From contig JBNKHV010000211.1 in NCBI GenBank assembly GCA_050290545.1, positions 13,463 to 77,462 of the forward strand: a stretch of DNA of 64,000 nucleotides, in the 5' to 3' direction. Below are positions 21,451 through 56,369 of this stretch, one piece after another. Position 1 is the stretch's first letter, and every line of letters starts with the position of its first letter. The notes under the pieces are model-generated. The model worked only from the letters and a program-made list of their open reading frames with translations. It was not told the DNA's origin and did not search any database. The stretch is from Polyangiaceae bacterium (lineage in GTDB: Bacteria; Myxococcota_A; Polyangia; Polyangiales; Polyangiaceae). Made by a program: the position numbers and the translations under genes.

Positions 21451-21575
21451 GTGGGGAGGGAGCGACGTGGATTCAGACATCGAATGGTCCATCTACAAGC
21501 ACCGTGCCAAGCGGGTCCTGTTCGTGGGGGGCGCCGATGCGCAAGAGTGTTGACGGACAGCTAGAGGTGGCGGGG

Positions 21576-41793: not shown

Positions 41794-43443
41794 TCAGTGC
41801 GGGTTGCACGGATTCGCCTGGCAATCCGGGCACTCACCGAGCCGAAACAGGATCTCGTCCAGTTCGCAAGTCGGGAGGTTGTCGTTGGTGTGGATGGTGA
41901 TGGCTGTGCCGAGATCGGTCAGTGCGGGCAGACTGTGAATGGTCCAGAGCTCGGGGTTCTTCCAGAACGCAACCATTTCTGCGCTCTCGAGTGCCGGCAT
42001 CTCCGCAGAGAAGGCTCCCGAGTTTTCGTGCACGTCGATGGCGCTCGCCCAGTTCAAGAGAGGCATGTCGATGACGGACAAGTTCTCGTTGAACGCCACC
42101 GTGATCCCCGTCTCGTAGTCGTTCGGAGTGCCGGCGGTTTCGAGCACGGGGCAACTGACGACCAACGAATCCGTCGCCGAGGAACCGTTCATTTCTATCG
42201 ATAGACCGCCGTCGATGGTGCGCACGGCGGGTAGCACCGCTTCGGACAAGCTGGCGTTGTCGGCGATGGACAAGTCGTGAACCGAGGTCACGCCTGACAG
42301 TGCCGCGACGCTCGTGAGTAGCTGGTTGGAGGCAATGCTTCCGTCCTGCACGTCGGTGAGCGCCCCGAGCCCATCGAGCGTCTCGAGCGCGTCGTTCCAT
42401 TCCACCGCCAATGTCCCGCCAACGGTGCGCAGCGCGTTCAGCCCCACGAGCGAGGTCAACGTTCGGTTGACAGTTATCGTCAGGTCGCCCGAGACGTGCG
42501 CCAAGTTGTTCAACCCAGATAGCGTATCGAGGTTGCGACTTCCGGTGAGCACGACGTTTTCACGATAGGTCAGGCTCTCCAGTCCTTGCAGGGAATCGAG
42601 GCCGTTGGAGTTGAGGATCAGGTCACCCATTCCAAACTGCAGGTCCTCGAGTGCGGACAGCGAGCGAATGTCGGTGCTCTCGAGCTCGAGAGTCCCTCCG
42701 AGGAACTCCAGCTGCTCCAGTCCTGCGAGCGACTGGAGGTCTCCCGACGAGCGAATCGCCAAGTCGCCAGCGATCCGCTCGAGACCGTCCAACCCCGAAA
42801 GATCGACCAAGCCCCCGAGCGCTTCGAACACGAGCGAGCCTTCGATTCTTTGCAACCCCTCCAACCCAGTGAGGCTGGTGACCTGCTCACCCGAGACGAA
42901 TAGCGTGCCCGGTAGGGAGGTGCAGCCCAGTGCGCCGAATTTCCAGACGTCCTCGTCCGAACGCAGATACAGCGTATCGGTGAAGCCAGCGTTGGCGGGG
43001 GATACGGTGGATAGGCTCTCTGCGCTGCAGGCTTCGTCTGCCTCGCTCGCTGACGCCTCGTCCGCGGCATCCATCGAACCCTCTTCTGACGGTTCCTCGT
43101 CGCCCGTCAGCTCGGTGTCATCAGCTTGGGACTCGCTCGCTTCGTCGTCCGAGTCCCACTTTCCTTCCTGGTCACTGCTCGGCGATTCGCTTGCCCCGCT
43201 CCCTTCCGAGCCATCGTTCGAGCTCGTGTCCGACGAGTCCTCGGCGGAGCTCCCCATGGACGTTTCGCTGTCCCACGTTCCGGATCCCGTGTCCGGTGCG
43301 TGGTCTTCGTCGGGCATCGTGTCTGGTTGCCCACCGCACGCAGTGGTGCCGGCGAATGCCAGGATGAGAGCGACGCTCCGGTGAGCGGAACGGCGGATTG
43401 GCTCCAAAAGGAGAACGGAAGCGCTACGAGTGTCTGAGTCCAT
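41794..43443 (-). CDS. lipoprotein with leucine-rich-repeat / receptor-L-domain-like solenoid repeats
   Basis: ATG at 43443 gives MDSDTRSASVLLLEPIRRSAHRSVALILAFAGTTACGG (lipobox). An acidic Ser/Asp/Glu linker is followed by more than 12 repeats of ~22-24 aa (LxGLxxLxxIxGxLxIxxNxxLxSLxG). The C-terminus is Cys-containing (CELDEILFRLGECPDCQANPCNPH). Confidence 0.75.
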   Translation of the reverse strand: MDSDTRSASVLLLEPIRRSAHRSVALILAFAGTTACGGQPDTMPDEDHAPDTGSGTWDSETSMGSSAEDSSDTSSNDGSEGSGASESPSSDQEGKWDSDDEASESQADDTELTGDEEPSEEGSMDAADEASASEADEACSAESLSTVSPANAGFTDTLYLRSDEDVWKFGALGCTSLPGTLFVSGEQVTSLTGLEGLQRIEGSLVFEALGGLVDLSGLDGLERIAGDLAIRSSGDLQSLAGLEQLEFLGGTLELESTDIRSLSALEDLQFGMGDLILNSNGLDSLQGLESLTYRENVVLTGSRNLDTLSGLNNLAHVSGDLTITVNRTLTSLVGLNALRTVGGTLAVEWNDALETLDGLGALTDVQDGSIASNQLLTSVAALSGVTSVHDLSIADNASLSEAVLPAVRTIDGGLSIEMNGSSATDSLVVSCPVLETAGTPNDYETGITVAFNENLSVIDMPLLNWASAIDVHENSGAFSAEMPALESAEMVAFWKNPELWTIHSLPALTDLGTAITIHTNDNLPTCELDEILFRLGECPDCQANPCNPH

Positions 43444-43522
43444 GCCAGGCACCGTAGCTGAGCTCTCCAACCCCGACGGGCGAAAATATCTTCACCCGAG
43501 TGCCGGCAAGCGCGCTGTTCTT

Positions 43523-44935
43523 CTAGGTGGCGGCGTAGGACACACCGAGGTTCGCGATGATCGCCGTTTCTTTGCCCGACGCGAGAGGAACAAGAACGGT
43601 CGACCCGCTGAAGGCGACGATGCATTGTCCTGCACGGCTGTGGCTGAACGGCTTGCTATCCGTTGCGCCCGCCATGCTTCCAAACGGACCGAACGTGCGC
43701 CCCCGGCTCGTCTTCAGCGTGAGCTGCACCACGCACTCCCAGCCATACCAAGTCCCCGTGTAGCCCGACACCTCCGTCAGCAACTCGCCTGGAGCCAGGC
43801 TCACCTCATGCGGCACACCGCTGGAGCCACCGTGCTGAACGCTGGTGTAGGTGACCTTTGCCGACTCGAAGCTACCGGTGTTCACGGTTTGAATCGCGTC
43901 CAGCACGTCTCCCGCGCGAATGGTCAGCGACGAGATTGGAGGGTTCTCAGCCGTGGCGATCAGGGTGGTGTCGTCGAAGCTGGCGTTGGGTGGCGCCGGG
44001 TTTACGAGCTGGTAGAGAATGATTTGCTGCGCTTGCTCGTAGGCGAAGTTGCCCGAGTTGATGCGCCAGTTGGTGATTCCCCGGAAGGGGACTCCGTTGG
44101 AACTGCCCCGTTGGTACGCCTCATAGGCCTCTTGCGCTGTCTGGTCCGGCTCGGGAGCGCCGGGGCCGATGCTTTCGAACTTGGCGCCGTAGGCGAGCAG
44201 GGTCGCGTCGATACCGAGCTCGGTGTAGGAGGGGGGGTATGCTCCGCCGTAGATCTGTAGGTTCACCAAATCGATGTTTGGATTGACGTTGGCGCCGCTG
44301 AGTTCGTCCGTCGAGGCGGGTGAAAGCGTCAAGTAGAGCGGCTTTCCGCCGTTCGCTTTCTGCTGGTCGAAGGCCGCGCGGATGGCGGGGAGCAGCGCGT
44401 TGAAGTTGGCGGCCGTCGTGTCGCTGGACAGTGGATACTCCCAGTCGATGTCGAGCCCGTCGAGATCGTGGGCGTTCAGGTACTCGACGAGATTGGCGGC
44501 GAACTGAGCCGCATAGCCGCTCGCTGGTTCGGGACCCGTGAAGATGTTGTTGAGCGTGTCGCCATTGCCCCAGAGTAGTGTCGCCACCAACAGAATGTTG
44601 GGGTTGGCTGCTCGTGCATCGGCGGTCAGACTGCTGAGATATTGCGCGTTCGTCATCGTCTTGCCGCTCACCTTCGAGGTGTGCGTCACTTCCGGCCACT
44701 CCAAGGTCCAACCCTGCTTCGCGGGAGCAGTGTGGAAGAACCCAACTCCCAACCAGTCGACGCTCTTGTAAACGCCAGAGCGAACTGCCGACTGGAAGGA
44801 GCTCGTGCCGTCGGAGTAGATGGTACCCGATGGATCATCCTCCTGGAGGTACATCCACGCGTTCACTGAGTTGCTGCTTGGCCAGGTCATTGTTTCCTCT
44901 TTTTGTGTCATTGAATGCCGTTGGATGGTAACCAC
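43523..44935 (-). CDS. GH18 glycoside hydrolase (chitinase-like) with C-terminal jacalin-type lectin domain
   Basis: DGLDIDWEYP is the GH18 catalytic motif (DxxDxDxE). The C-terminal ~130 aa (HGGSSGVPHEVSLAPGELLTEVSGYTGTWYGWECVVQLTLKTSRGRTFGPFG) fit a jacalin-like beta-prism. No obvious signal peptide. Confidence 0.8.
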   Translation of the reverse strand: MVTIQRHSMTQKEETMTWPSSNSVNAWMYLQEDDPSGTIYSDGTSSFQSAVRSGVYKSVDWLGVGFFHTAPAKQGWTLEWPEVTHTSKVSGKTMTNAQYLSSLTADARAANPNILLVATLLWGNGDTLNNIFTGPEPASGYAAQFAANLVEYLNAHDLDGLDIDWEYPLSSDTTAANFNALLPAIRAAFDQQKANGGKPLYLTLSPASTDELSGANVNPNIDLVNLQIYGGAYPPSYTELGIDATLLAYGAKFESIGPGAPEPDQTAQEAYEAYQRGSSNGVPFRGITNWRINSGNFAYEQAQQIILYQLVNPAPPNASFDDTTLIATAENPPISSLTIRAGDVLDAIQTVNTGSFESAKVTYTSVQHGGSSGVPHEVSLAPGELLTEVSGYTGTWYGWECVVQLTLKTSRGRTFGPFGSMAGATDSKPFSHSRAGQCIVAFSGSTVLVPLASGKETAIIANLGVSYAAT

Positions 44936-44952
44936 CCCCGCGGACCGAAGAG

Positions 44953-46737
44953 TCAGCTCGCCGCGCTGCGCGGGCCTTCTGCGGACTCCGACTGCAGGAA
45001 CCTGCGCAGCAACGCCACGGCGCTCGGCGACAACGCACGCGTCAGGGGCATGTACAGGGTCGTGCCACGGTACTCGTCGGAGATGCGTTTGAGGATCTCA
45101 CCGCCCACCGCGCGAATGGTCGCCTCGTCATTGAGCGGGATGCGCTTGGACATGGCCGGAAAGGTGACATAGAAGAACCGGAGGGCGTTTTCGTAAACCT
45201 CGTCCCAAGACACGGGCCCATCTCCGAACGATGGGGAAGGGTACCTGCGAAAGTTGATGAAGTAGCCACCAGAAGCACTCGTTTTCGCGCCGAGGGCAAT
45301 GTTCAGTGTCACGTAGCCATCACCCTTGCCGTTGTCCGTTGCCGGGATCACGACTTCGGTCGCTCCAGCAGGCACGGTGATCGTGTCGGGACAATTCAAG
45401 AACTCGCCAGCGGGCAGGGCGCCCGAAGGCGTCAACGTCGTCGTCAACGTCAACTCCCGCTGCAGCGGACCTCCCAATTCGGACACCTTCAGTCGGATCT
45501 CGCCGAAGGGAGTACTTGGCTCGTTGAGATAGATGTTCCGTGGATCGCCAAACAATCGGATGGGGGCCTCGTCGATCTGTAGCGGATGCTTCGGGTTGGA
45601 AGCCCCTATCCGGATCGCATTCTCCGTCAGCTTCTGCGCGACTGCCGGGGTGACGTCCACGTCGTAGACGCCACCGTAGACGTAGTACGTCTCCGGCAAC
45701 GACGCGGTGCGCACGAGATCCGGCTCCGCCGCGGTCCCGATCAACAAGTCCCCATAGTCGAGGTTTGGACCGATGGGGCCGGTGTTGTCTTCTGCATCCT
45801 GCCGTAGTGCCTGCCCCTGAAGCGCCGCCGAAAGGTCGAGGCTGAGGCGGCCAGCTTTTTCGTCGAGCAGCGCCACACCGCTGGAGCCGAGCATGCCATT
45901 CTGTAGCAGTCGCCCTGCAGGACAGGTCGCCGGTTCGTCTGGATACCAGGGCCCCAAGGTGCCGACGATTCTTCCGAGCGAAGGGTTCGCGTCGTTCCGG
46001 TTCTCCCGGTAATTCGCCGCCATGTACTCGGGGGACTTTCCAGGCATGTGCTCGAACATGTTGAAGCGCAGCACGATGCCCTGTGCGCCTTCCGCCTCGA
46101 CGAGTGCGCGCAGCAGCGCGTTCGAGGAATCGAAGGACTTCACCGCACTAGTTGGGAAGGCGACTTGAAACGTCCCGTTGGCATAGACCGAGCCCGGAGT
46201 GGGAAACGGGGGCTTCGTCGTCGAATCGTAGCGCCGGCCGATGAAGCGCGAATGACACACCGTGTCCCACTGGATGTGGAGCAGGGGAGTGCCGCTTCCG
46301 ATCTGCAGGCCCCCGACGTAGATTTGTGTCGTCTGACCGCTGGTCGCGTCCAGGTCGACCATTACAGGGCCACCGTAGGGGCCTGACCCGTTCTTGGGGT
46401 CCACAGAGCCGAGCAAGAATACGGGTGCCCCAATCAGAGCTCCCGTCGCTTGCACGTCTCCGGGAACGCCCGCGGACGAGACCTTGGCATCCATGAAGGC
46501 CACCTGGTGGTCGCCGTAGTAGTTCCAGCCGCCCCGAGCGCTCGCGCCCGGTGTTGGGGACGTGCGCAGGTATTCGATGATCTCGGCATCCGACTTCTGG
46601 CTCACGACCTTTGCCGCAGCCAGATCGAAGAGCTGTTCAGCACTGCCGGGCTTGCCGTATTCGTCGTTGTTCGCCGTGTCGACGTTGGTGCTGCCGCCGC
46701 CCCAAAAATTGATGCGCGGTCCGTTTAGATAACTCAT
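44953..46737 (-). CDS. hypothetical protein (594 aa), operon partner of the GH18 and CxxCH genes
   Basis: Long clean ORF with coding bias. It lies 17 nt before the GH18 start and 23 nt after the CxxCH gene stop. No signal peptide and no recognisable motif. Confidence 0.7.
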   Translation of the reverse strand: MSYLNGPRINFWGGGSTNVDTANNDEYGKPGSAEQLFDLAAAKVVSQKSDAEIIEYLRTSPTPGASARGGWNYYGDHQVAFMDAKVSSAGVPGDVQATGALIGAPVFLLGSVDPKNGSGPYGGPVMVDLDATSGQTTQIYVGGLQIGSGTPLLHIQWDTVCHSRFIGRRYDSTTKPPFPTPGSVYANGTFQVAFPTSAVKSFDSSNALLRALVEAEGAQGIVLRFNMFEHMPGKSPEYMAANYRENRNDANPSLGRIVGTLGPWYPDEPATCPAGRLLQNGMLGSSGVALLDEKAGRLSLDLSAALQGQALRQDAEDNTGPIGPNLDYGDLLIGTAAEPDLVRTASLPETYYVYGGVYDVDVTPAVAQKLTENAIRIGASNPKHPLQIDEAPIRLFGDPRNIYLNEPSTPFGEIRLKVSELGGPLQRELTLTTTLTPSGALPAGEFLNCPDTITVPAGATEVVIPATDNGKGDGYVTLNIALGAKTSASGGYFINFRRYPSPSFGDGPVSWDEVYENALRFFYVTFPAMSKRIPLNDEATIRAVGGEILKRISDEYRGTTLYMPLTRALSPSAVALLRRFLQSESAEGPRSAAS

Positions 46738-46760
46738 CCGGGTTCTCCTCGATGGTGCCG

Positions 46761-48017
46761 TCAGGGCGCGCTGGATTGGGCGGATAGAAAGATGAAACTG
46801 TAGTTCGTCTTGATGCTGTCGTTGGGGACCCGCGCCGTGCTGTGACAGTCCATGCAGCTGCTGGTGGGCTGGATGTAACTCTCCATCGTCACGTTGGCCA
46901 CGGTTCCCGGTGTTGGGGTGCCCTGCGGATTGCCGGGGTCATTGGGGTCCGCGGGCCACTGAGGCGAGACGAGTTGATAGTAACGAAACGGAGTGTCCCT
47001 GAGGAGAGCCTGCCACTTGTCGTTGATGGTGGCTACCGTGTCGGTGATCGGCGTCACACGCTCGATCTGATTGGGCACGGTGAACGGCTGCCCGCTCGTC
47101 GTCGGCGACATGTTGGGGGTGCAGTACGCCCCCTGGCAGTCCGGGTTCGAGTAGCTCGGGTGCGCGCCCGCCAGATTGTCGACCTGCTCGAACGTCGTCC
47201 AGATCCACTGGGGAAAGCCAGCGGGTTTGTACACGACGTGGAAGCCGACGAGTCCCACTGTGGCCGGCTCGTATTTGCCAGTCGGCTTCCCCTGGTCGTC
47301 GAACCCCATCACTTCGGCACTGACCGCGTGGTACCTGGCGGATTGTTCCGGGCTGATGATGCGCCAGGCGCCTTTGACTTCGAGCGCGCCTTGCGGGAAG
47401 TCGATCGTCTTGGCGGTGTTGAGTACGTTCGCGTCGTAGTACTGGTTTTCGACGACATAGTCGTAGGAGGCTTGGTCTACGGCGATCTCGTAGTACGTCG
47501 GCTTCCCCGCTTGGTCCACCAACCAGCCACCGACGGCTTGCTGAATCGACGGCGGGAGCTTGTGAGCTGCATCCACCTTCGAACGGAAGTGCAGCTGCTT
47601 CTTGTGGGTGGAGCCACTTGCCCACGGTCCCGGATCCTGGGCGTTCGGCAAGAACAATTGCTCCGTCGTCTTGTAGGTTTCCCACACGCGGGCAGAGTCC
47701 TGTGCGAAAGGCAACGTACAATCCGGCTCTCCGCGACTGCCCACTTTCGCCGGCCAGTTCACCGCCGTGAACAAGCGCCAGGCATAGTCGGCGAACTCAC
47801 TCAGCGCTCCGGTTGCTGCAGGAGGTGTCGATGGCAGCGTGCAGTATTCGGACGGGACCGTCTGCGTTTGCGCTGCGACTGCGCTCGGTGTTTGAGGCTC
47901 AGGGGCTTCGACAGCGAGGCTCGTCGTTGGGCCGCCCTGCGGTGCCTCGGGCGTCCCTCGTTCGCAACCGCACAGCACGATGCCGACGCAACAAGCGGAG
48001 CGTCGGAAGAAGGTCAT
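46761..48017 (-). CDS. secreted lipoprotein with C-terminal CxxCH motif (paralog of 58352-59908)
   Basis: ATG at 48017 gives MTFFRRSACCVGIVLCGCERG (lipobox). Blocks conserved with the paralog: EFADYAWRLFTAVNWPA, VWETYK, GAWRIIS, FPQWIWTTFEQVDNL, YYQLVSPQWP. The C-terminus carries CMDCH, a potential heme c binding site. Confidence 0.75.
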   Translation of the reverse strand: MTFFRRSACCVGIVLCGCERGTPEAPQGGPTTSLAVEAPEPQTPSAVAAQTQTVPSEYCTLPSTPPAATGALSEFADYAWRLFTAVNWPAKVGSRGEPDCTLPFAQDSARVWETYKTTEQLFLPNAQDPGPWASGSTHKKQLHFRSKVDAAHKLPPSIQQAVGGWLVDQAGKPTYYEIAVDQASYDYVVENQYYDANVLNTAKTIDFPQGALEVKGAWRIISPEQSARYHAVSAEVMGFDDQGKPTGKYEPATVGLVGFHVVYKPAGFPQWIWTTFEQVDNLAGAHPSYSNPDCQGAYCTPNMSPTTSGQPFTVPNQIERVTPITDTVATINDKWQALLRDTPFRYYQLVSPQWPADPNDPGNPQGTPTPGTVANVTMESYIQPTSSCMDCHSTARVPNDSIKTNYSFIFLSAQSSAP

Positions 48018-48084
48018 CAATCTCGAGGTTCGTTTCAACGTCAATTCTTTCGGTTGGGCCGCCGTTGCCGCGGTCGTCTTCGGT

Positions 48085-51000
48085 TCACGGCTCCAGGCAT
48101 TTGCGCGACCATGTCGAGGTGCCATCTTTGCCGATCGTCGAGCTTTGGCACATGTCCGGCAGTGGCACCGACAAGTCCACATTCATCGATTGGCAAGTCT
48201 CCGCGCACACGCTCTCGGCGGCGCAGCCCTCGCCCCAAAGCTCGTCCTCTGCCAGCTCGCACTCCTCCAGTGAAGCGCGAACGCCGATACGTTGCATCAT
48301 GCCCCGGTCCTCGTGCCCGAGGATGTGACAGTGAATGACGAAGTCACCATCGTAGTCGAGGAAACGATGGCGAACCTTGACGAAGCCCTCTCGGATCGGA
48401 GCTGGGTTCGGCGCGCGGCCACAGACGCATTGGCTTCCCACGACGCAACCCGAGTCTTCGACTGCCGCGTCGTCGCAGCTCCATTGTCCGTTCCAAGTCG
48501 CGTCCGTCGCTTCTGTCGCCGCGGGACAGTCTCGTTCAGCGTCCGCGTCACTGCCGAGCGGCTCCACACAGGCGTCTCGGGCTTGGCAGCCGCAGACGCA
48601 ACTCACGTTCGGGTCCTTGCAGCCAGCTTTCTTGGCATCCGCTTGCTCGCAACTCTCCGACCCATTCCAGATCATGTTGGCGGCAGCGCAGACTTGCCCA
48701 CAGGAGCTCTGCACTCCAGCATCCTGCTCGGCGCTCTTCGGGCCGCAAACGTCTCCCCCTTCGAGCGGAGGAATGTACGCCAGGGGAAGGCCAATCGTAT
48801 CCTGCCAGCGCCGCAAAGGGCTCGAGGTTTCCAATTTCCCGACGTCCTCCGGCAGTGGGCACGCGCCCTTGCAGGTCATGTGCTCGTTCGTGCAGCCTGT
48901 GAGGCAGGCTTCCGCAAAGTCGCCGTCACACTCCTCGCTACAAATCTGCAGTGACTCGTCGCACTCGGTGAAGCAAGCGTTGTCTGGATCGGACGGTCCG
49001 GTGAAGTAAGTGTTTGCGTCCAACCAGTCGGTGATGAAGAACGGATTGATGTGGATGTGGAACGGGTGGGAGACCGCGGTGTAGTTGGTGATCGTCCACT
49101 CTTCGGCGGTGCCGAGTGCCATGCATTGGTCCAAGCGGTCGGCGCAGAACTTCTTGTTGTCGATGTAGAACTCCGGGCTTTGGGCTTGGCCAGGGTTCAT
49201 CTGGAACTCGACCGTCTGTGGATCGGTCAGCTCCTCATCCGAGACAGGAACGAGGGCCGTCTGCAGTGCCTCGGGGAGCTGGTCGAAAGTTCGCAAGTTC
49301 CTCGGCAGCGAATCCACCGGCGGCGGAGCCATCGGATCGGGTGGTTCGATGACCAGTTTGAGCAGTGGCACATCCACTCCGCTGGGGCTGTTCGCCAAGA
49401 ACGTGCCCGGATCTTCCGGCAGCGAATCACAGCTGGGCATGTCGCCGCTCGAGGTATTGCCGCTGCCATTGTCCGCGCCGCGGCCGTTTCCGCCTCCGTT
49501 GCCACCGCCGCCGCCGATGACGTCAGACTTTCGCAGCAACAGCTCCGTTCGCTCCTCGACGGCGGGTGCGACGATCAGGAAGTCCGCTCGGTTGCCAGAG
49601 TTGAAGGCGATGTCCAGGTACTTGTCGTTGTTGCACAAGACATCCTGCCAGCGCTCGTCGAGGAACTCGATCCCGTCTTGGGCGATTTGATAGACGCCGG
49701 GCCGCTTGTAGCTGCCCGCCTGAGGCACTCCGTCTTCGCATTCCGTTCCTGGCGGCGGAACGTACGGCTTCCCATCCACGTCCTGCAGTTCCATGCCCTT
49801 GAAACTGGCGCTGGCCTGTTGGGTGCCGCTGATGAATCTCCAACGTTGAACTTCGCCAGACTTCATCGTGAGCGTCGGAGTGATGACACCGTTGACGGAA
49901 AGCTCAGGTGGCGCTTGGCGCTGAAACTCCTCCGAGTCTTGGGGTTCGAGCAGGCGCGGCTTGCGATCGTCGATCTGCTGCAACACCAACACCTGCTCAT
50001 TGGCATCCTCGATCTCGGGGATACCGGCGAAGTCCCCTTCGATGATCAGCGCACCGGCGAGCCCGTTGAGCATCTGAATCGCGGTGGAGCCGTGCTTGTG
50101 GGCGTGATACCAATGGGTTCCGGGGATCTGTGACTCTTCGAAGTGCAAGGCGTAGGGCGGGACTTCGTCGCCGGGGAACTTCCAACACGCGATCCCTTTG
50201 CAGTTGGGGCTCGGAGGCGACGTCTCGGCGTCCGGCGGCGTGGCAATGACGTAGACGTTGTCCACCAATCTGAACTCAGGGTTCGGCGCGCCGGACTCCA
50301 AGAACTGCAGTTGACCATTCGTGTCTGGGGCGACGTGCGTGCCGTGAAAATGAATGTTGGTGTCGTTGAAGCCGTGGAAGCAGTTGGGCGACACGTCGGC
50401 TTCGGGTGAACCTTCGGCACAGTTGTGTCCCGTGCCGTCGTTCTCGGAGGCACCGTCGGTCACGCTGAGAAGGTTGGCGAACTGAAGATTCAGCGTGTCC
50501 CCGATCTTCAAGCGCAACGTGGGTCCAGGGAAGCTCGCGGGCAGCGGCGCTTCGCCAGCGAGGCCCCCGCGGTAAGTGCGCAGGGTCATCGGCATCGGCT
50601 TCATGTAGATGTCGGGGCAGACGGTGTCTGGCTCGCCATCTTGGCCGAAGTTGGTCCCAGGCAAATAGAACCGCATCACGTCGTCGAAGCGTTCGTAGAC
50701 GACGTCGAGCTCGACGTTGAGCGACTGGTTGGGGCCCTCTGGCGCGCAGAGTTCGGGCACCATCGCGTTGGGATTGCAGCGCTCTCCCGGTTTGACACCC
50801 GCGTCGCTCGGGTCGACGACGGCAGCGTCCGCCATCACGACCGGAGTGGTGGCGTCCTTCGGCTCGGGCCCAGCGTCGTTCTTGGGGTCGACGACGCTCG
50901 CGTCGGCCACCTCCGCCGGACCGGCAGCGTCCTGCGTGTCGATGTCTGAGCTGGCGTCTTCGGCCAAACCTGAATCGCCGGGTGCCTCCGCACCGTCGCT

Positions 51001-51105
51001 CCCTTCACAGGCCCAGCTGGTGAACAGGCCTAGGCAGACGGCGGCTAAGTGAACGCGGGCGCGCACAGTGCTGCGCTTGCCCGCAGTGGCATTGGATCCC
51101 GACAT
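48085..51105 (-). CDS. multicopper oxidase (laccase-like) lipoprotein with a large Cys-rich insertion
   Basis: ATG at 51105 gives MSGSNATAGKRSTVRARVHLAAVCLGLFTSWACEG (lipobox). All four MCO copper-ligand motifs are present: HFHGTHV, HWYHAHKHG, HPFHIHINPF, HCHILGHEDRGMM. About 230 aa with more than 30 Cys lie between motifs 3 and 4. The nucleotide sequence also has a GGN run encoding GGGGGNGGGNG. Confidence 0.85.
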   Translation of the reverse strand: MSGSNATAGKRSTVRARVHLAAVCLGLFTSWACEGSDGAEAPGDSGLAEDASSDIDTQDAAGPAEVADASVVDPKNDAGPEPKDATTPVVMADAAVVDPSDAGVKPGERCNPNAMVPELCAPEGPNQSLNVELDVVYERFDDVMRFYLPGTNFGQDGEPDTVCPDIYMKPMPMTLRTYRGGLAGEAPLPASFPGPTLRLKIGDTLNLQFANLLSVTDGASENDGTGHNCAEGSPEADVSPNCFHGFNDTNIHFHGTHVAPDTNGQLQFLESGAPNPEFRLVDNVYVIATPPDAETSPPSPNCKGIACWKFPGDEVPPYALHFEESQIPGTHWYHAHKHGSTAIQMLNGLAGALIIEGDFAGIPEIEDANEQVLVLQQIDDRKPRLLEPQDSEEFQRQAPPELSVNGVITPTLTMKSGEVQRWRFISGTQQASASFKGMELQDVDGKPYVPPPGTECEDGVPQAGSYKRPGVYQIAQDGIEFLDERWQDVLCNNDKYLDIAFNSGNRADFLIVAPAVEERTELLLRKSDVIGGGGGNGGGNGRGADNGSGNTSSGDMPSCDSLPEDPGTFLANSPSGVDVPLLKLVIEPPDPMAPPPVDSLPRNLRTFDQLPEALQTALVPVSDEELTDPQTVEFQMNPGQAQSPEFYIDNKKFCADRLDQCMALGTAEEWTITNYTAVSHPFHIHINPFFITDWLDANTYFTGPSDPDNACFTECDESLQICSEECDGDFAEACLTGCTNEHMTCKGACPLPEDVGKLETSSPLRRWQDTIGLPLAYIPPLEGGDVCGPKSAEQDAGVQSSCGQVCAAANMIWNGSESCEQADAKKAGCKDPNVSCVCGCQARDACVEPLGSDADAERDCPAATEATDATWNGQWSCDDAAVEDSGCVVGSQCVCGRAPNPAPIREGFVKVRHRFLDYDGDFVIHCHILGHEDRGMMQRIGVRASLEECELAEDELWGEGCAAESVCAETCQSMNVDLSVPLPDMCQSSTIGKDGTSTWSRKCLEP

Positions 51106-51272
51106 GAATGCCTCTTCACCCCGTCGGCGAAAAGAGTCCATTACAGGACATTTCACGGCCTTGCGGGCCGCCGCTGTTCAGCAGGAATACGGCCCGCGGG
51201 GCGGTAATCCCATCGCCTGGGCAGCTAGGCCCGGCGATGGTTGAGCTCGGTCTTGGCGCAGCCTCGAGCGGC

Positions 51273-52997
51273 TCAAAAGGGGCCGCAGCCTGTGCGCGGC
51301 ACCGTTCCGCTACCGACGAGCTGATCGAGGGCTTCCGCCTGCGCCGCACAGTCGATGGGATTGCCCTCGAGGTAAATGGTGCTCAAGTCCGGGAAGTCGG
51401 CCCCCACGAGAGGGCTCACGTCGCTGATGGCGTTATTCGTCAGGTACAGGAGCTTCAGTGAGGAGAGCTGAGCCAAAGGAGCGACGTCTTCGATTTGATT
51501 GTCGTCGAGGCGCAGCCGCTCCAGCGCCGTCAAAGGAGCCAGAGGCGAAATGTCGCTGATGGCGTTCGCGCGCAACGTGAGGGACGTCAAGTCGTCCAGC
51601 GCCTCGAGCCCGTCGAGATCGGCAAGTCCGGTGCCCGTCAGCTCCAAGTTCAGCAGTCTGCGGAGAGAGCTCAAAGGTTGCACGCTCGTCACGCCGCTGC
51701 CCACGATGTAGAGCTGCTCGAGCGCCCTCAGGCTGCTTAGGGGCGACAGGTCTGCCTGTCTTGCGTTCTCGATCCGTAGCAGGTTGAGCTTGGTGAGCGA
51801 ATCGAGTGGCGTGAGATCTCCCGAGCTGGGCACGCCCAGCGTCAGAACGGTCAGATTGACCAAGGGACTGATCGGGTCGACGTCGAGCTCCACGTCGGTC
51901 ACGCCACTGACGTGCAATTCGGTCAGTTGCAGTAGAGAGCGCACTGGCTCCAGGCTGCTCAAGCTGTCCGAATGGACGCGAAGAAAGGTCAAGCTCCTGT
52001 GCCCCGCGGTGGGGCTCAAATCGCTGACGTTGGCCGAAATCACTTCGAGCGTCGTCAACTTCGTCAGGGGCTCCAGTGGCGATAGATCACTCACCGCGTC
52101 GGAAGAGATGCGCAAGGAGGTGAGCTCCGACAACGACGCGAGCGGGGAGAGATCAGCGACGGAGATGTTGCGCAGGGTGAGCGTTTCGAGCTTCGTGAGC
52201 GCTCCCACGGGTGTCAGATCGACCACCCCCGGGTTGTAAGAGAGATCGAGGGACGTCAGACCCACCAGGCACTCGAGTCCAACCAGCGAATCGAGATTCC
52301 CGCCGCTGACGCTGAACGCACCTCCCTCGAGTGACGTCAGGGTCGCTACCTGATCAGCCGTGAGTTCCCCGTCGACCAGGCCACCCGAGACGGAACTCAG
52401 TTCCGAGCGCACCAAGTTTTCCAGGTCCTGATCTTCGAATACGACGGGGCCAACGCAGGGGTTGAGCTCCGGGGGCATCGGCTCGGGCTGCTCGGGATCC
52501 AGCGGTGGATCGGAGTCGGGCATCGCGCTGCCATCCGTCATCTCGTCGGGGGTTTCCACCTCCACGGCGTCTGCCGGTGTCTCATCGGGTGGCGTCTCTT
52601 CTGCGGGAGTGTCCGTGACATCGGTGGGGGAGGCTTCGTCAGCGTCCATCGTCGCCCCAGGGTCGACGGCTTCGTCGCCAGTGTTGGGATCGGTCGGATC
52701 CGCAGCCACGTTGGGCGTCCCGGAGCTGTCGGGATGCCTGCTGTCAGTGGCGGAGCCGTCTGGGGTGCTGCCGGGTTGTCGCGAGTCGCCATTCGCCGCA
52801 CTCGAATTAGCGTCCGCCGTACCCGACGTGTCGTCGGTGAACGTGCCATTGGTGCCATCGACAGCGCCTGGTTCGTCTTCGACTTCGACGGCAACGTCGG
52901 CGTCGGATGATGCACCACAGCCGGAAGTCGTCATCGCGATGAAGCACGTCACGACGCACACGGCCCACGCGCTGGTACTGCTCTTGCCCATTCTCAT
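51273..52997 (-). CDS. leucine-rich-repeat (internalin-like LRR) lipoprotein
   Basis: ATG at 52997 gives MRMGKSSTSAWAVCVVTCFIAMTTSGCG (lipobox). An acidic Thr/Asp/Pro linker is followed by more than 12 canonical 22-aa LRRs (LxxLxxLxxLxLxxNxISDLSPL). It ends with a Cys-containing cap (NPIDCAAQAEALDQLVGSGTVPRTGCGPF). Confidence 0.8.
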   Translation of the reverse strand: MRMGKSSTSAWAVCVVTCFIAMTTSGCGASSDADVAVEVEDEPGAVDGTNGTFTDDTSGTADANSSAANGDSRQPGSTPDGSATDSRHPDSSGTPNVAADPTDPNTGDEAVDPGATMDADEASPTDVTDTPAEETPPDETPADAVEVETPDEMTDGSAMPDSDPPLDPEQPEPMPPELNPCVGPVVFEDQDLENLVRSELSSVSGGLVDGELTADQVATLTSLEGGAFSVSGGNLDSLVGLECLVGLTSLDLSYNPGVVDLTPVGALTKLETLTLRNISVADLSPLASLSELTSLRISSDAVSDLSPLEPLTKLTTLEVISANVSDLSPTAGHRSLTFLRVHSDSLSSLEPVRSLLQLTELHVSGVTDVELDVDPISPLVNLTVLTLGVPSSGDLTPLDSLTKLNLLRIENARQADLSPLSSLRALEQLYIVGSGVTSVQPLSSLRRLLNLELTGTGLADLDGLEALDDLTSLTLRANAISDISPLAPLTALERLRLDDNQIEDVAPLAQLSSLKLLYLTNNAISDVSPLVGADFPDLSTIYLEGNPIDCAAQAEALDQLVGSGTVPRTGCGPF

Positions 52998-53327
52998 ATC
53001 GCTCTCTCGCTCTGCCCCCACGACGCTCGGTCGAGGCGTCTGACTCGGCGTCGTGTCGCCGCCATGATAGCGCGACTCGAATGACCCCCATATCCACATT
53101 TTTGGGATCGCATCATCCGGAAAGTCAGGACTATCGCGCCCCTCACCCCCTTTGTCCGTGCGCTGCGGGTGCTTGAAATTGCGAGCGGCTCAGGACCAGT
53201 GTGGGCTCTGGTAGGAAGGCGCCCGGGAGCCCGAGCCGGACGATGCTCACTCGGTGCTCTGCGCGCCGTTCAGTCACGGGTTGTGAGCGGAGGATCGCGC
53301 CCGGCGTTTCACCACATAGGCAACGAT

Positions 53328-54788
53328 TTACTGCCAGAAGCTGTCGACCTGCGTCACGGCGACGAGCAGCTGCGCCAGATCATCGCCGCTCGCGGAGAAC
53401 AGCGCTTGGACTTTGTTGGCTTCGCTTTCGACTGCGGAATCGATCTCGACGCCCGTAGTGTGATGAATTGCGGTGCGGGCGAGGCAGCTTTGGACGAGGG
53501 CGTTGTCGCTCAACGCGGCCATGAATTCGTCGGGCCCATCGAACGCGATTGGCTCGCTGTTGCCGAGAGTGTCTTGGTATATGACCTCGCCACTGACGAC
53601 CAAAGGCTGCCCGGCTTCTTCCGTTTGTGGGCGCCCCACGACGTCGAAGTTCTCCAGCGCAAAACCGTAGCTGTCGAAGACGCTGTGGCAGCCGACGCAT
53701 ATGGCGTTGCTCACTGCCGTCGTGTAGCTCTCTTGGAAGTTCTCCACGTCGGCGAAGGTTTCTGGCACCAGATCGGCCGGCTTGGGTGGTACCAGCAAGC
53801 ATTGCATCGTTTCGAGGACCCATCTTCCGCGGCGCCCGATGCGATTGAGCGAGGCAGTGACCAAACCCAGCGTCAACACGCCACGCTGCTCGGGAACGAG
53901 CACGCGTCCCGGCAGCTCGCCCACGTCTTTGAGGGCGAGGTGCTCGGCGAGCGCCGGGAACATCTGCGCTTCGGGCTCGGTCAACAGGTGCGCGAGCGTC
54001 GTGTCTCCAGATTCGGCGAAGTCGACCAAGAATGACTGCGCCTGAACCTGCATCTCTGCCCACACCTCGACGTCGAGTTTGGCGTTGGGTGAATAGGGCC
54101 ACGACTCGAACCCCAACCACGTCTCGAGGAACGCGAGCAAGCCCTGAGCGGCTTCGGGTTGCTCGATCAGGTCGAGCGCGGCGCACTCGACGTCGGCGTA
54201 CGTCTGTAGTTGGCCGTCGATTGCCATTTCCAGAAGCTCGGGCGTCGCGCCGGTATCGAAGAGCAGATTGGACAGGCGCTCCGCGATCACCTCGGGCGGA
54301 AGAGGAATGGGTGTGGCGTCGGAGCAGGGCACGTACTCCTCGGCGCTCTCGCCAGGGCCGGCCTCGCTCGCCGCCTCCGCTTGTGGGCCCGCGGATGCTG
54401 GCAGCGGGTCCTGCGTTCCAACGCCGCTGAGGGGCGGGCTCGAGGCGAGCGGACCAGGGGTGGGGGCCGGTGCTATCGCGATGCCGTCGCCGTTTCCGAC
54501 TTCGTCCGCCGCCTCACCGGCGCCCACGGGTTCACCGCCGCTTGCGGACTCACCAGTGCCTACTGTTTCACTGCCGTCGTTGGGAGCAGCGGCAATACCG
54601 TCAGACTCGTTCGCGTCCCCCGTGGCGCTCGTCGTATCGTCCCGCTCGGAGGCGTCGTCCGCGGTCACCTCGTCGGAGGAGTCTGCCTTCGTTGGCAGCA
54701 CCTCGAGTTCGGATTCGCCGATGACGCCGCTTTGTGCGCCGCAGCCGACGACCAAGGCGAGCAAGGCTGGAGTGTGTCGTTTGAGCAT
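53328..54788 (-). CDS. lipoprotein with CxxCH motif, DUF1588/DUF1592-like (Planctomycete/myxobacterial PSD-type) domain
   Basis: MLKRHTPALLALVVGCGAQ (lipobox). An acidic linker is followed by a C-terminal domain with CVGCHSVFDSYGFALENFD, the CxxCH plus FALEN-type motif seen in DUF1588-family proteins. Confidence 0.7.
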   Translation of the reverse strand: MLKRHTPALLALVVGCGAQSGVIGESELEVLPTKADSSDEVTADDASERDDTTSATGDANESDGIAAAPNDGSETVGTGESASGGEPVGAGEAADEVGNGDGIAIAPAPTPGPLASSPPLSGVGTQDPLPASAGPQAEAASEAGPGESAEEYVPCSDATPIPLPPEVIAERLSNLLFDTGATPELLEMAIDGQLQTYADVECAALDLIEQPEAAQGLLAFLETWLGFESWPYSPNAKLDVEVWAEMQVQAQSFLVDFAESGDTTLAHLLTEPEAQMFPALAEHLALKDVGELPGRVLVPEQRGVLTLGLVTASLNRIGRRGRWVLETMQCLLVPPKPADLVPETFADVENFQESYTTAVSNAICVGCHSVFDSYGFALENFDVVGRPQTEEAGQPLVVSGEVIYQDTLGNSEPIAFDGPDEFMAALSDNALVQSCLARTAIHHTTGVEIDSAVESEANKVQALFSASGDDLAQLLVAVTQVDSFWQ

Positions 54789-54853
54789 GGGTCTCCCTTA
54801 TTGCGAGGTCGAGGTTGCCCTCAGTGGGTATTGCCCCGAGCAGCGCCACGTTC

Positions 54854-55714
54854 TCACTTTTCGCGCTCCAAAAGCGCGCGCGCCTGATCCCGCAGCCGGA
54901 TCCGCTCCCGAGTCAGAAGTCCGGCAGGGAAACGCCGCTCGTGTTCGGCGGTGAGCGCGAGCACTCCCGCCGCGTCGCCCGCACTGAGCCGCAAGCGCGC
55001 TCGCTCCAAGAGGACTCGTTCTTGCTGCAGGGACGACTGATGCGCGTTTCCGCTCGAGGACTCGTTCCTGTTCCAGGTCGCGGATGAACGCGTGCCGGAC
55101 GCGGCCGCCGAGGTGTCGTCAGCTGCCGGTTCAGTTCGAGGCGTGTCCGTCGCAGGCTGCGCTTCGCGTGAGTGTCGCGACCGACTCGCCGCACCTGGCG
55201 TCACGGCATGCATGGGTGTCGGCACTGGCTCACGCCCAGTCGCCAATTCGTGCGTTTCAGCTGCATCGAGCTCCGCCGCCGGCGCCTCTTTGGCAATGGA
55301 GCCCTCTCGAGCCGCGTTCGGCGATGCGGCTGAGCGTTCACGCGCGTCAGCACGATGTTTCTCTTCACGCTGTTCCCCTTCTTGGCGTTCACCCTCTTGC
55401 AGCGCCGAGTGCCCGGCATACCAGGGCAAGTACGCCATCACGCGCTGCACCCACTTGCCGCCCAGGCCCGTCGCGGCGATCGCACTCGGCACCAGCAGGA
55501 ACACGACCGCCGCCAACACCAAGGGACGCACGGACAGCGGCAGCGAAGCGGGGCGGCCTGTCGTCGACACGGAAGTCCGCAAGCGGGCCCGCACGTGTTC
55601 TCTCAGCGCTCGGGGCGGTACTTCGCAGCGTGAAGTGCGCCGCAACCGTGCCAGCTCCGGCAACGGTGCCTCGAGCCCATCGATGTCGAACGTCGACTGC
55701 AGGTCTGGGTTCAT
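54854..55714 (-). CDS. anti-sigma factor (single-pass membrane protein) cognate to the upstream ECF sigma
   Basis: Its start overlaps the sigma gene stop by 4 nt. A cytoplasmic N-terminus is followed by one TM segment (LVLAAVVFLLVPSAIAA) and a periplasmic Glu/Arg/Ser-rich domain. Confidence 0.7.
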   Translation of the reverse strand: MNPDLQSTFDIDGLEAPLPELARLRRTSRCEVPPRALREHVRARLRTSVSTTGRPASLPLSVRPLVLAAVVFLLVPSAIAATGLGGKWVQRVMAYLPWYAGHSALQEGERQEGEQREEKHRADARERSAASPNAAREGSIAKEAPAAELDAAETHELATGREPVPTPMHAVTPGAASRSRHSREAQPATDTPRTEPAADDTSAAASGTRSSATWNRNESSSGNAHQSSLQQERVLLERARLRLSAGDAAGVLALTAEHERRFPAGLLTRERIRLRDQARALLEREK

Positions 55715-56292: not shown

Positions 56293-56369
56293 GAACGGTT
56301 ATTGTGTTAGGGGCCGCAAATTCTCAGAAAATCTTCGTGTCCCTGCCCGCATCCGCCGACGGGCGCATT

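What the first reader, a model, noticed from the sequence alone, without database searches (positions are those of the whole stretch)
43523..51105. Operon coupling a Cys-insert multicopper oxidase to a CxxCH secreted protein, an unknown 594-aa protein and a GH18-jacalin protein
Four minus-strand genes have gaps of only 67, 23 and 17 nt. The MCO has all four copper-site motifs but carries a ~230-aa, more than 30-Cys insertion between motifs 3 (HPFHIHINPF) and 4 (HCHILGHEDRGMM), inside the C-terminal cupredoxin domain. That placement is very unusual for laccase-like enzymes. The next gene encodes a lipoprotein whose only obvious cofactor site is a C-terminal CMDCH, so a possible mono-heme c partner. 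The combination with a GH18/jacalin carbohydrate-active protein hints at an extracytoplasmic polymer-oxidation or modification system (chitin, phenolic or melanin-like substrates) of unknown function.
Basis: partly seen in the sequence, partly recalled or inferred. Interest (0 to 1): 0.65.

Follow-up and report, generated by a model that had tools for sequence, protein, structure and literature searches.

The report
Conserved haem/VioB-like gene pair beside lectin-decorated oxidase
The four genes exist and sit tightly together, but only the middle two (a secreted haem protein and a relative of half of the pigment enzyme VioB) travel together across bacteria, and the copper oxidase's odd cysteine-rich insert is a sugar-binding lectin module.

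Summary
In detail: four minus-strand genes with gaps of 67, 23 and 17 nt, an intact multicopper oxidase (MCO) with 235 aa between copper motifs 3 and 4, a lipoprotein with C-terminal CMDCH, a 594-aa protein, and a GH18+jacalin protein. The Cys count is overstated: 22, not more than 30.

In 79 genomes carrying a homologue of the 594-aa protein, none has an MCO or GH18 homologue within 10 kb. The MCO's three closest relatives lack the other genes.

The conserved unit is the middle pair, usually 3 nt apart or overlapping by 4 nt.
- P2 (the CxxCH protein) has a cytochrome P460/c'-beta-like fold, and the CxxCH is a family hallmark.
- P3 (594 aa) is homologous to the N-terminal ~580 residues of VioB and has no signal peptide.
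- In Pseudomonas and other gammaproteobacteria the pair lies next to ebo/EDB clusters, which are linked to tryptophan-derived indole products. No ebo gene lies in this window.

The MCO insert is composite. One part is a twin-CxxxC segment shared with close homologues. The other is two diverged MVL-lectin repeats, at the same loop where other MCOs of this clade carry a canonical MVL domain. It is in frame and recurs in other assemblies.

Likely function, inferred: an aromatic-metabolite oxidation module placed beside a glycan-targeted oxidase.

The parts
48085..51105 (-). Three-domain multicopper oxidase, probably a lipoprotein (1006 aa; the longest ORF runs to 51156)
   Evidence: Pfam Cu-oxidase_2 and Cu-oxidase_3 score above their cut-offs. 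PDB sequence hits include the Thermus thermophilus laccase 2xu9, E = 8e-22. All copper ligands are invariant in alignment A1. The N-terminus is hydrophobic and ends in Cys.
49039..49068 (-). Copper motif 3, HPFHIHINPF (residues 697-706 of the 1023-aa ORF)
48859..48975 (-). Insert part A: four CxxxC pairs (CFTEC, CSEEC, CLTGC, CKGAC), read as disulfide-stapled helical hairpins
   Evidence: Shared with the closest homologues P0002 and P0003 (67% and 65% identity) and absent from more distant ones. The hairpin reading is inference from the motif pattern.
48415..48756 (-). Insert part B: two tandem diverged MVL-lectin-like repeats (residues 801-914, 14 Cys), unique to this protein
   Evidence: Pfam MVL (PF12151) E = 0.011. 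A canonical MVL domain sits at the same loop in 19 related MCOs. An HMM built from those inserts scores 18.7 bits on repeat 2. A phmmer search of 1.84 billion representatives finds only MVL-repeat proteins. Alignment A6.
48295..48333 (-). Copper motif 4, HCHILGHEDRGMM (T1 Cys, His and axial Met)
46761..48017 (-). P2: secreted lipoprotein (418 aa), a cytochrome P460/c'-beta-like candidate mono-haem c protein
46842..46856 (-). CMDCH, the candidate haem c attachment motif of P2
   Evidence: Invariant C388, C391 and H392 in A5. The motif SSC[MLF]xCH is present in 133 of 150 family ORFs.
44953..46737 (-). P3: 594-aa protein without a signal peptide, homologous to the N-terminal ~580 residues of VioB
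43523..44935 (-). GH18 catalytic domain (DGLDIDWE at 44438..44461) plus a C-terminal jacalin lectin domain; no signal peptide
   Evidence: Pfam GH18, jacalin and TIM-barrel_EndoS. Motif position and N-terminus.
58352..59908 (-). Second, distant P2 paralogue (518 aa, lipoprotein-like, CQGCH at 58496..58510) with no P3-like partner
   Evidence: 24% identity to P2 over about 400 aa, E = 3e-20. It clusters with the P2 family. Motif position.

Best explanation
The region is a lineage-specific juxtaposition of three separable things, possibly co-transcribed here.

(1) A secreted, lipoprotein-type three-domain MCO with all copper ligands. Two loops of its third cupredoxin domain carry disulfide-rich decorations: a twin-CxxxC hairpin segment, and two tandem MVL-type lectin repeats. 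I infer that the lectin repeats tether the oxidase to GlcNAc/mannose-containing glycans.

(2) A widely conserved two-gene module.
- P2 is a periplasmic lipoprotein with a cytochrome P460/c'-beta-like beta-sheet fold and a family-wide CxxCH near the C-terminus. That suggests one covalently bound haem with an open coordination site, so a catalytic or ligand-binding haem rather than a simple electron shuttle.
- P3 is a cytoplasmic protein corresponding to the N-terminal ~580 residues of VioB/StaD/RebD-type aryl-pyruvate-imine dimer synthases. It lacks their C-terminal ferritin-like half.
- By analogy with VioB chemistry, and with the ebo/EDB and scytonemin context of its homologues, the most likely role (inferred) is this: P3 couples or oxidises an aromatic amino-acid-derived precursor in the cytoplasm, and P2 processes the exported product oxidatively in the periplasm.

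(3) A signal-less GH18+jacalin glycosidase-lectin.

Shown: the homologies, the conservation of the pair, the absence of conserved linkage to the MCO and GH18 genes, and the lectin nature of the insert. Inferred: haem binding, the substrate class, the two-compartment order, and any hand-off to the MCO.
For: Pair conservation:
- A P2 homologue lies immediately upstream of P3 in about 75 of 79 genome loci. These span Gamma- and Alphaproteobacteria, Bacteroidota and Acidobacteriota.
- By ORF calling, a P2-family ORF ends within 65 nt of the P3 start in 70 of 82 loci. The gap is +3 nt in 51 and a 4-nt overlap in 7.
- The pair is also adjacent in six metagenomic or genomic places.

No conserved link to the flanking genes:
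- There are no MCO or GH18 hits in any of those loci, nor around the closest MCO homologues.

P2:
- The top three Foldseek hits are from the same family.
- PF16694 is the commonest sub-threshold Pfam hit, in 15 of 52 members with best E = 5e-4.
- The CxxCH is invariant, and the N-terminus looks like a signal peptide with a lipobox.

P3:
- It matches the TIGR04492 VioB model from end to end of the model's N-terminal half.
- The N-terminus is conserved and structured, with no signal peptide.

Context:
- EboA, EboB, EboE, EboF, EboD and ScyE-family genes flank the pair in gammaproteobacteria.
- ebo exports the scytonemin monomer for periplasmic oxidative dimerisation (PMC6282210).
- Expressing the EDB cluster yields indole derivatives and indole dimers (PMC12904256; PMC9655573).

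Lectin insert.
Against: - The C-terminal segment of P2 that carries the CxxCH is modelled with low confidence (pLDDT 52-84). No haem chemistry was tested.
- P2 is exported and P3 is not, which fits poorly with a physical complex despite the tight gene coupling.
- P3 lacks the C-terminal half of VioB, and no VioA-like amino-acid oxidase or ebo gene lies in the 64-kb window.
- I could not confirm that P2/P3 homologues fall within the published limits of the EDB cluster (the primary papers are not held).
- Tight spacing and the lack of internal terminators leave open a real, lineage-specific functional coupling with the MCO and GH18 genes.
Confidence: 0.6

Rival explanations
1. The four genes form one extracytoplasmic polymer-oxidation operon, and P2 is a mono-haem cytochrome c that passes electrons to or from the MCO. 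The system acts on chitin, phenolic or melanin-like substrates.
For: The genes are co-directional with gaps of 67, 23 and 17 nt and no terminator-like hairpin between them; one lies after the last gene. The MCO and P2 are both exported. Glycan-binding modules occur in both the MCO (MVL-like) and the fourth gene (jacalin, GH18).
Against: There is no synteny of the set in 79 + 6 + 3 related loci. P2 always pairs with P3, not with an MCO. MCOs take electrons directly from substrates and need no cytochrome partner (established knowledge of the family). The P460/c'-beta fold is not an electron-shuttle cytochrome fold. P3 and GH18-jacalin lack signal peptides.
Confidence: 0.12
2. P2 is a nitrogen-oxide or hydroxylamine-handling haem protein, like true cytochrome P460 or cytochrome c'-beta. 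The P2-P3 pair would then serve NO/NH2OH detoxification or sensing rather than aromatic metabolite chemistry.
For: The closest structural relatives oxidise hydroxylamine or bind NO and CO (the identities of the hits are; their functions are from established knowledge).
Against: P2 is about three times larger than P460 proteins and falls below the Pfam threshold. Its invariable partner is a VioB-like protein. Its recurrent genomic context is ebo/EDB and ScyE-like genes, not nitrogen-cycle genes.
Confidence: 0.1
3. The long Cys-rich insert is an assembly error, a frameshift or a decaying region, and the MCO is non-functional.
For: The insert is the longest of the 120 homologues, and part B has no counterpart in the closest homologues.
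Against: The reading frame is continuous, with conserved MCO strands before, between and after the two parts. GC3 is 0.68-0.78 throughout. The identical protein occurs on two NCBI contigs and in an independent Logan assembly. Part B is homologous to MVL modules at the same site in relatives. All copper ligands are intact.
Confidence: 0.02

Closest known systems
VioB / StaD / RebD (iminophenyl-pyruvate dimer / chromopyrrolic acid synthases; NCBIfam TIGR04492)
   Same: P3 aligns end to end with the N-terminal ~580 positions of the VioB model, and 56 of 59 family members match it. Like VioB, as I recall its sequence, P3 starts with a conserved structured N-terminus and has no signal peptide.
   Different: P3 is 594 aa, not about 1000. 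It lacks the C-terminal half, which is ferritin-like from my own knowledge of Pfam PF12902. It scores 44 bits against a cut-off of 1250. It is never next to vioA/C/D/E-type genes in the loci examined. Instead it is strictly paired with a secreted CxxCH protein.
Cytochrome P460 / cytochrome c'-beta (Pfam PF16694; PDB 6hiu, 2je3, 8brk, 7s5o)
   Same: It gives the top structural matches with two programs. Shared features are a beta-sheet-rich fold, a single CxxCH near the C-terminus and export to the periplasm. PF16694 gives sub-threshold hits in 15 of 52 members.
   Different: P2 is about 420 aa against about 150-190. It has an N-terminal helical extension and about 110 residues inserted before the CxxCH. 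It falls below the Pfam gathering score. The P460 Lys cross-link was not assessed. It is always encoded with P3.
ebo / EDB clusters and periplasmic ScyE in scytonemin synthesis
   Same: In Pseudomonas, Rheinheimera, Shewanella, Nitrospirillum and others, the P2-P3 pair lies directly after eboA-F. A second paralogous pair (P2'-P3') and a ScyD/ScyE-family gene often accompany it. The logic matches ebo-scytonemin: a cytoplasmic step, export, then a periplasmic oxidative step (PMC6282210).
   Different: The 64-kb window has no ebo gene. The window's closest P2-P3 relatives are stand-alone pairs flanked by unrelated genes.
Bacterial three-domain multicopper oxidases (Thermus thermophilus laccase 2xu9, CueO, CotA)
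   Same: It has the four copper-binding motifs, the Pfam Cu-oxidase_2/_3 domains and an axial Met at the T1 site.
   Different: It belongs to a long clade (630-870 aa homologues) with large inserts in domains 1 and 3. The spacing between motifs 3 and 4 is 235 aa here, against about 35 in 2xu9 and a clade median of 68. It also has a Cys-rich C-terminal tail.
MVL (Microcystis viridis lectin; Pfam PF12151, mannan-binding protein)
   Same: The part B repeats share the pattern DAxxxCPxxxxxxxxTWNGQW...SVCG with MVL repeats. The only database relatives are MVL-repeat proteins.
   Different: The repeats are diverged (Pfam E = 0.011). They carry extra cysteines and a 9-residue 'AGC' extension. They are embedded in an enzyme loop rather than forming a free lectin. 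Glycan specificity is untested.
GH18 chitinases / EndoS-type endo-beta-N-acetylglucosaminidases with lectin domains
   Same: It has the GH18 TIM barrel with an intact DxxDxDxE motif, a weak match to the EndoS TIM-barrel model and a jacalin lectin domain.
   Different: It has no signal peptide, and the LRR modules are encoded by separate flanking genes. It is not linked to P2-P3 in any other genome examined.

Membership tests
Multicopper oxidase (three-domain, laccase-like) | Four copper-ligand motifs: HxH, HxH, HxxHxH and HCHxxxHxxxxM | tested here: met
   H269/H271, H351/H353, H697/H700/H702, and H942/C943/H944/H948/M953. All are invariant in A1.
Multicopper oxidase (three-domain, laccase-like) | Pfam Cu-oxidase domains above the gathering score | tested here: met
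   PF07731 scores 52.3 bits (cut-off 20.4) and PF07732 scores 31.7 bits (cut-off 21).
Cytochrome P460 / c'-beta (PF16694) | Pfam model above the gathering score | tested here: not met
   13.5 bits against a cut-off of 27 for the window P2. 15 of 52 relatives hit with E between 5e-4 and 10, all below the cut-off as far as shown.
Cytochrome P460 / c'-beta (PF16694) | Beta-sheet P460 fold | tested here: inconclusive
Cytochrome P460 / c'-beta (PF16694) | Single CxxCH near the C-terminus and export to the periplasm | tested here: met
   CMDCH at residues 388-392 of 418; invariant in A5; present in 133 of 150 family ORFs. The N-terminus is hydrophobic and lipobox-like.
Cytochrome P460 / c'-beta (PF16694) | Covalently bound five-coordinate haem (with a Lys cross-link in P460 proper) | not testable with these tools
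   This needs haem staining, UV-vis spectroscopy and mass spectrometry.
VioB / StaD / RebD (TIGR04492 equivalog) | Full-length (~1000 aa) match above the cut-off of 1250 bits | tested here: not met
   44 bits. Only model positions 1-580 are matched, and the protein ends at residue 594.
VioB / StaD / RebD (TIGR04492 equivalog) | Homology of the N-terminal domain | tested here: met
   Residues 1-582 align to positions 1-580 at E = 6e-12. 56 of 59 family members match, best E = 5e-24.
VioB / StaD / RebD (TIGR04492 equivalog) | Haem b cofactor and aryl-pyruvate-imine coupling activity | not testable with these tools
   This needs biochemistry. The family has no invariant His or Cys.
ebo / EDB cluster | eboA-F genes adjacent | tested here: not met
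   No Ebo family hit was found among the window ORFs scanned. Ebo genes are present next to P2-P3 in 46 of 51 Pseudomonas-type and 14 of 31 other loci.
MVL lectin (PF12151) | Pfam model above the gathering score | tested here: not met
   16.2 bits against a cut-off of 25, E = 0.011, for part B.
MVL lectin (PF12151) | Homology to bona fide MVL repeats | tested here: met
   A clade-specific insert HMM scores 18.7 bits, E = 6e-8 for a single-sequence search. All the inspected phmmer hits among 1.84 billion representatives are MVL-repeat proteins. Alignment A6. The insertion site is the one where related MCOs carry a canonical MVL domain (53.8 bits in P0015).
GH18 glycoside hydrolase | Pfam domain above the cut-off and the DxxDxDxE catalytic motif | tested here: met
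   PF00704 scores 59.6 bits (cut-off 29.6). DGLDIDWE lies at residues 159-166.
   0 of 79 genome loci, 0 of 6 further P3 places and 0 of 3 closest MCO loci.
   Short gaps, no internal terminator-like hairpin, and one hairpin after the last gene at 43512-43493. The consensus scan found no sigma-70-like promoter anywhere in 43000-53500. No expression data are available.

The most novel reading that the evidence does not exclude
P2-P3 is an uncharacterised, phylogenetically broad two-compartment enzyme system for oxidative coupling of tryptophan- or tyrosine-derived aryl-pyruvates. It pairs a cytoplasmic 'half-VioB' with a periplasmic P460-fold catalytic haem c protein. It would be the missing chemistry behind the indole derivatives and indole dimers attributed to Pseudomonas EDB/ebo clusters. 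In this organism it would have been recruited next to a lectin-tethered laccase-like oxidase, which polymerises or deposits the exported aromatic product on a glycan surface as a scytonemin- or melanin-like extracellular pigment or armour.
Probability: 0.15. Interest if true: 0.8.

Novelty: new variant of a known kind. Interest (0 to 1): 0.55.

Why it matters
The ebo/EDB clusters are conserved across bacteria and algal plastids. They are needed for scytonemin export and for nematode repellence, yet their product is unknown (PMC6282210, PMC12904256).

This work shows that a strictly paired P460-like haem lipoprotein and a VioB-N-terminal homologue, often in two paralogous copies, are the commonest companions of ebo in gammaproteobacteria. 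That gives a concrete, testable candidate for the indole-coupling chemistry seen when EDB is expressed.

It also defines two protein families that have no Pfam model and no relative of solved structure by sequence.

Separately, lectin (MVL) modules inserted into a loop of the copper-binding domain of a bacterial MCO clade suggest a way of targeting oxidases to glycans. I found no description of this in the searched literature. That could interest enzyme engineers.

For the scan itself, the lesson is that tight spacing did not predict a conserved operon here.

Tried and rejected
- Sequence searches of the PDB with P2, P3 and their family profiles found nothing meaningful.
- The AlphaFold-database fold libraries were unavailable, so the model-level similarity of P3 to VioB could not be checked.
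- I did not model the MCO. The tool returns no coordinates, so the distance of the insert from the T1 copper could not have been measured, and part B has too few homologues for a confident model.
- I compared the 134-aa and 479-aa proteins downstream of the second P2 paralogue with the ~690-aa partner seen in Shewanella. There was no significant similarity.
- My single-linkage clustering lumped the ScyE-like 368-aa protein with P3. A direct comparison shows no similarity, so this was an artefact.
- Primary EDB papers (PMC3660686, PMC9328163, PMC11567786) are not held. The position of P2/P3 relative to the published EDB limits therefore remains inferred.
I do not endorse 'Myxococcota'.
- The frameshift or misassembly explanation for the insert was rejected.
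Full report
**Observation**

The region holds four co-directional minus-strand ORFs:
- a multicopper oxidase (MCO), 48085..51105, with the longest ORF running to 51156
- P2, 46761..48017
- P3, 44953..46737
- a GH18+jacalin protein, 43523..44935

The gaps are 67, 23 and 17 nt. The last gap becomes 62 nt if the ATG at 44890, used by gene callers, is the true start.

A simple scan finds no terminator-like hairpin between the genes. One lies just after the last gene, at 43512-43493.

The MCO has all four copper motifs, and the ligand residues are invariant against homologues. It has 235 residues between motifs 3 and 4. That interval holds 22 Cys, not more than 30, and the whole ORF holds 44.

The insert is not an artefact:
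- Conserved MCO strands lie before, between and after its two parts.
- GC3 stays at 0.68-0.78 through it.
- The same proteins occur on two NCBI contigs and in an independent Logan assembly.

**What the MCO insert is**

Alignment with homologues splits the insert into two parts.

Part A (Cys 728-766) is four CxxxC pairs. It is shared with the two closest homologues, at 67% and 65% identity.

Part B (residues 801-914, 14 Cys) is unique to this protein. It consists of two repeats of the pattern ...C..(V)C......WNG..SC.......GC.....CVCG.

Across the 120 best homologues, the median spacing between motifs 3 and 4 is 68 aa. In 34 of them it is 100 aa or more, and the window protein has the maximum.

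In 19 of the enlarged homologues, the loop after the conserved WWDTFxLP strand contains a canonical MVL (mannan-binding lectin, PF12151) domain. In P0015 it scores 53.8 bits. This is exactly the site of part B.

Four results tie part B to MVL:
- Part B itself matches PF12151 weakly, E = 0.011.
- An HMM built from the inserts of the relatives hits repeat 2 at 18.7 bits, and hits repeat 1 weakly.
- A full phmmer scan of 1.84 billion representative proteins finds only 16 relatives. The five I inspected are small secreted tandem-MVL-repeat proteins, or in one case a GH18 domain fused to two MVL-variant repeats.
- The multiple alignment shows that the window repeats belong to an MVL variant with a 9-residue 'AGC' extension.

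So the 'unusual' insert is a lineage-specific duplication and elaboration of a lectin insertion that recurs in this MCO clade. I found no paper describing MCOs with MVL inserts. I could not measure where the module sits relative to the T1 copper.

**Is the four-gene set a unit?**

The MCO's three closest homologues have unrelated neighbours.

A degenerate-pattern scan of one genome per GTDB species with the P3 family alignment returned 79 loci with 10-kb flanks. A tblastn search with all six window proteins gave these results:
- A P2 homologue lies immediately upstream of P3 in about 75 of the 79 loci.
- No locus has an MCO or GH18-jacalin homologue at E of 1e-5 or better.

The same holds for Teredinibacter, Pseudomonas and a metagenome contig, and for the three closest P3 homologues at 56-58% identity.

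By ORF calling, a P2-family ORF ends within 65 nt of the P3 start in 70 of 82 loci. The P2 stop and the P3 start are 3 nt apart in 51 of them and overlap by 4 nt in 7.

The conserved functional unit is therefore P2-P3. The MCO and the GH18-jacalin gene are lineage-specific neighbours.

**P2**

No Pfam or NCBIfam family passes threshold, and there is no PDB relative by sequence.

Evidence for a secreted haem c protein:
- The family alignment has invariant C388, C391 and H392 in the motif ESYIQPxSSC[MLF]xCH.
- CxxCH lies in the last 90 residues of 133 of 150 family ORFs. The exceptions are mostly short fragments.
- The N-termini are signal peptides, mostly with lipoboxes.

Evidence for a P460-like fold:
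- The AF2 model has pLDDT 82.6. The core (residues 56-355) is above 90, and the CxxCH segment is lower, as expected for a haem-dependent region.
- Foldseek ranks the same family first to third, though without significance.
- PF16694 (Cytochrome_P460) is by far the commonest sub-threshold Pfam hit in the family: 15 of 52 members, best E = 5e-4, and E = 0.1 for the window protein.

These three weak-to-moderate lines agree with the position of the CxxCH and with export. I therefore regard P2 as an enlarged, remote relative of the P460/c'-beta fold. From established knowledge, proteins of that fold carry a five-coordinate haem c that binds or oxidises small molecules, rather than shuttling electrons.

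**P3**

P3 matches NCBIfam TIGR04492 (VioB) over residues 1-582 against model positions 1-580 of 1003. 56 of 59 family members match it, best E = 5e-24. All scores are far below the equivalog cut-off.

P3 therefore corresponds to the N-terminal half of VioB/StaD/RebD-type enzymes and ends where their C-terminal half begins.

Other properties:
- The N-terminus is conserved and structured, so there is no signal peptide.
- The AF2 model is confident, with pLDDT 91.6 and pTM 0.91. It is mostly beta with a C-terminal helical bundle.
- The family has many invariant Arg, Tyr and Met residues but no invariant His or Cys.

**Wider context**

Clustering the flanking ORFs of the 79 loci, followed by family scans, shows a recurrent layout in gammaproteobacteria such as Pseudomonas, Rheinheimera, Shewanella, Endozoicomonas and Marinobacterium, and in the alphaproteobacterium Nitrospirillum. 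There the pair follows eboA, eboB, eboE and eboF, with an EboD-VTT fusion further upstream. These clusters often also hold:
- a second, distantly related pair: P2' (about 384 aa) and P3' (about 790 aa; 24% identity to P3)
- a 345-aa protein of unknown function
- a ScyD/ScyE-family gene

ebo genes lie within 10 kb in 46 of 51 Pseudomonas-type loci and in 14 of 31 other loci.

The literature gives the following:
- In Nostoc, ebo exports the scytonemin monomer for periplasmic oxidative dimerisation by ScyE (PMC6282210).
- The Pseudomonas 'EDB' variant contains ebo plus genes of unknown function. When expressed in E. coli it yields tryptophol, other indole derivatives and novel indole dimers (PMC12904256; PMC9655573).

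VioB chemistry is the dimerisation of an indole-pyruvate imine (established knowledge). The VioB-like P3 and P3' are therefore natural candidates for that chemistry. This is an inference. I could not check the published limits of the EDB cluster, because the primary papers are not held. I found no paper linking ebo with VioB or with a cytochrome.

The window itself has no ebo gene. Its closest P2-P3 relatives (Teredinibacter, Gilvimarinus, Marinimicrobium, Sphingomonadales, Acidobacteriota, Bacteroidota) are stand-alone pairs flanked by unrelated genes. A VTT/DedA membrane protein gene is a recurrent neighbour.

**Mechanism proposed**

Shown:
- P2 is exported and P3 is not.
- The two genes are tightly coupled.
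- P2 resembles an open-site haem c protein.
- P3 is a half-VioB.

Inferred:
- P3 acts in the cytoplasm on an aromatic amino-acid-derived keto acid or imine.
- The product crosses the membrane, through ebo where it is present.
- P2 oxidises or couples the product in the periplasm.

In this organism the adjacent lectin-decorated MCO could act further on the same product at a glycan surface. The only support for that is gene order.

The GH18-jacalin protein has an intact catalytic motif but no signal peptide. Its link to the rest is a shared glycan theme and nothing more.

**Verdict**

The operon and 'electron partner' interpretation is not supported by comparative data.

What is really of interest is a widespread, uncharacterised P460-like/VioB-like gene pair, together with a lectin insertion in an MCO clade. 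I rate this a new variant of known kinds, of moderate interest.

Noticed in passing
window 58352..59908 (-), with 57908..58312 and 56370..57809 downstream: A second, distant P2-family lipoprotein (518 aa, 24% identity to P2, CQGCH near the C-terminus) lies about 7 kb upstream. It is followed by a 134-aa and a 479-aa protein with no family match, not by a P3-like gene. The 134-aa protein ends in a motif (IAAWIDQGAP) that recalls the C-terminal end of Planctomycete-type cytochrome domains. That resemblance is from memory.
   Followed up: partly
window 41794..59908 (-): About 18 kb of genes lie on one strand: the P2 paralogue, two unknowns, an ECF sigma factor (55711..56292) with a likely anti-sigma factor (54854..55714), a PSD4/PSCyt3/PSD2-domain protein (53328..54788), an LRR protein (51273..53099), the four genes of the finding, and a second LRR/receptor-L-domain protein (41794..43470). 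Several of them, including the MCO and both LRR proteins, start with a lipoprotein-like signal followed by a long acidic low-complexity linker. Both LRR proteins give hits to the EndoS LRR model, next to a GH18 that weakly hits the EndoS TIM-barrel model.
   Followed up: partly
L032 4156..12924 (Rheinheimera); the same layout in L007 and most Pseudomonas loci: ebo/EDB-type clusters carry two paralogous P2/P3 pairs (P2' ~384 aa with P3' ~790 aa, then P2 with P3). A 345-aa protein of unknown function separates the pairs, and a ScyD/ScyE-family protein follows them. In several Pseudomonas loci the P2' ORF is broken into fragments of 160-350 aa that lack the CxxCH, which may mean pseudogenes or sequencing errors.
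   Followed up: partly
L040 4626..8166 (-), L077 11993..15524 (-), L016 5361..7460: A third pairing exists. A longer P2-family protein (~485 aa) lies next to a ~690-aa protein with no family match (cluster c19), in Shewanella, Crocinitomicaceae and Nitrospirillum, close to the P2-P3 pair.
   Followed up: no
protein P0378 (377 aa, from the representatives search): This is a GH18-like domain (FDGVDIDFE motif, identified by eye and not scanned against Pfam) fused to two MVL-variant repeats of the same subtype as the MCO insert. It suggests that this lectin subtype travels with GlcNAc-active enzymes.
   Followed up: no
L074 11780..12367, L009 5860..6537, L021 1201..3126 and others (cluster c16): A VTT/DedA-domain membrane protein gene recurs beside P2-P3, and in some genomes it is fused to EboD. 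It weakly matches the undecaprenyl-phosphate transporter UptA model, which hints at a lipid-carrier step.
   Followed up: no
window 18244..21492 (-) and L002 3562..6279: The window encodes a 1082-aa protein with a lamin-tail domain and a PPDK_N (PEP-utilising, ATP-binding) domain. A PPDK_N/Rph-type gene also lies near the closest MCO homologue, P0003. This is probably coincidence.
   Followed up: no
MCO residues 955-1023 (window 48085..48294): The MCO has a 69-residue tail after copper motif 4, with six Cys. The tail is shared with P0002, P0003 and P0004 but absent from more distant homologues. No Pfam match was found.
   Followed up: partly
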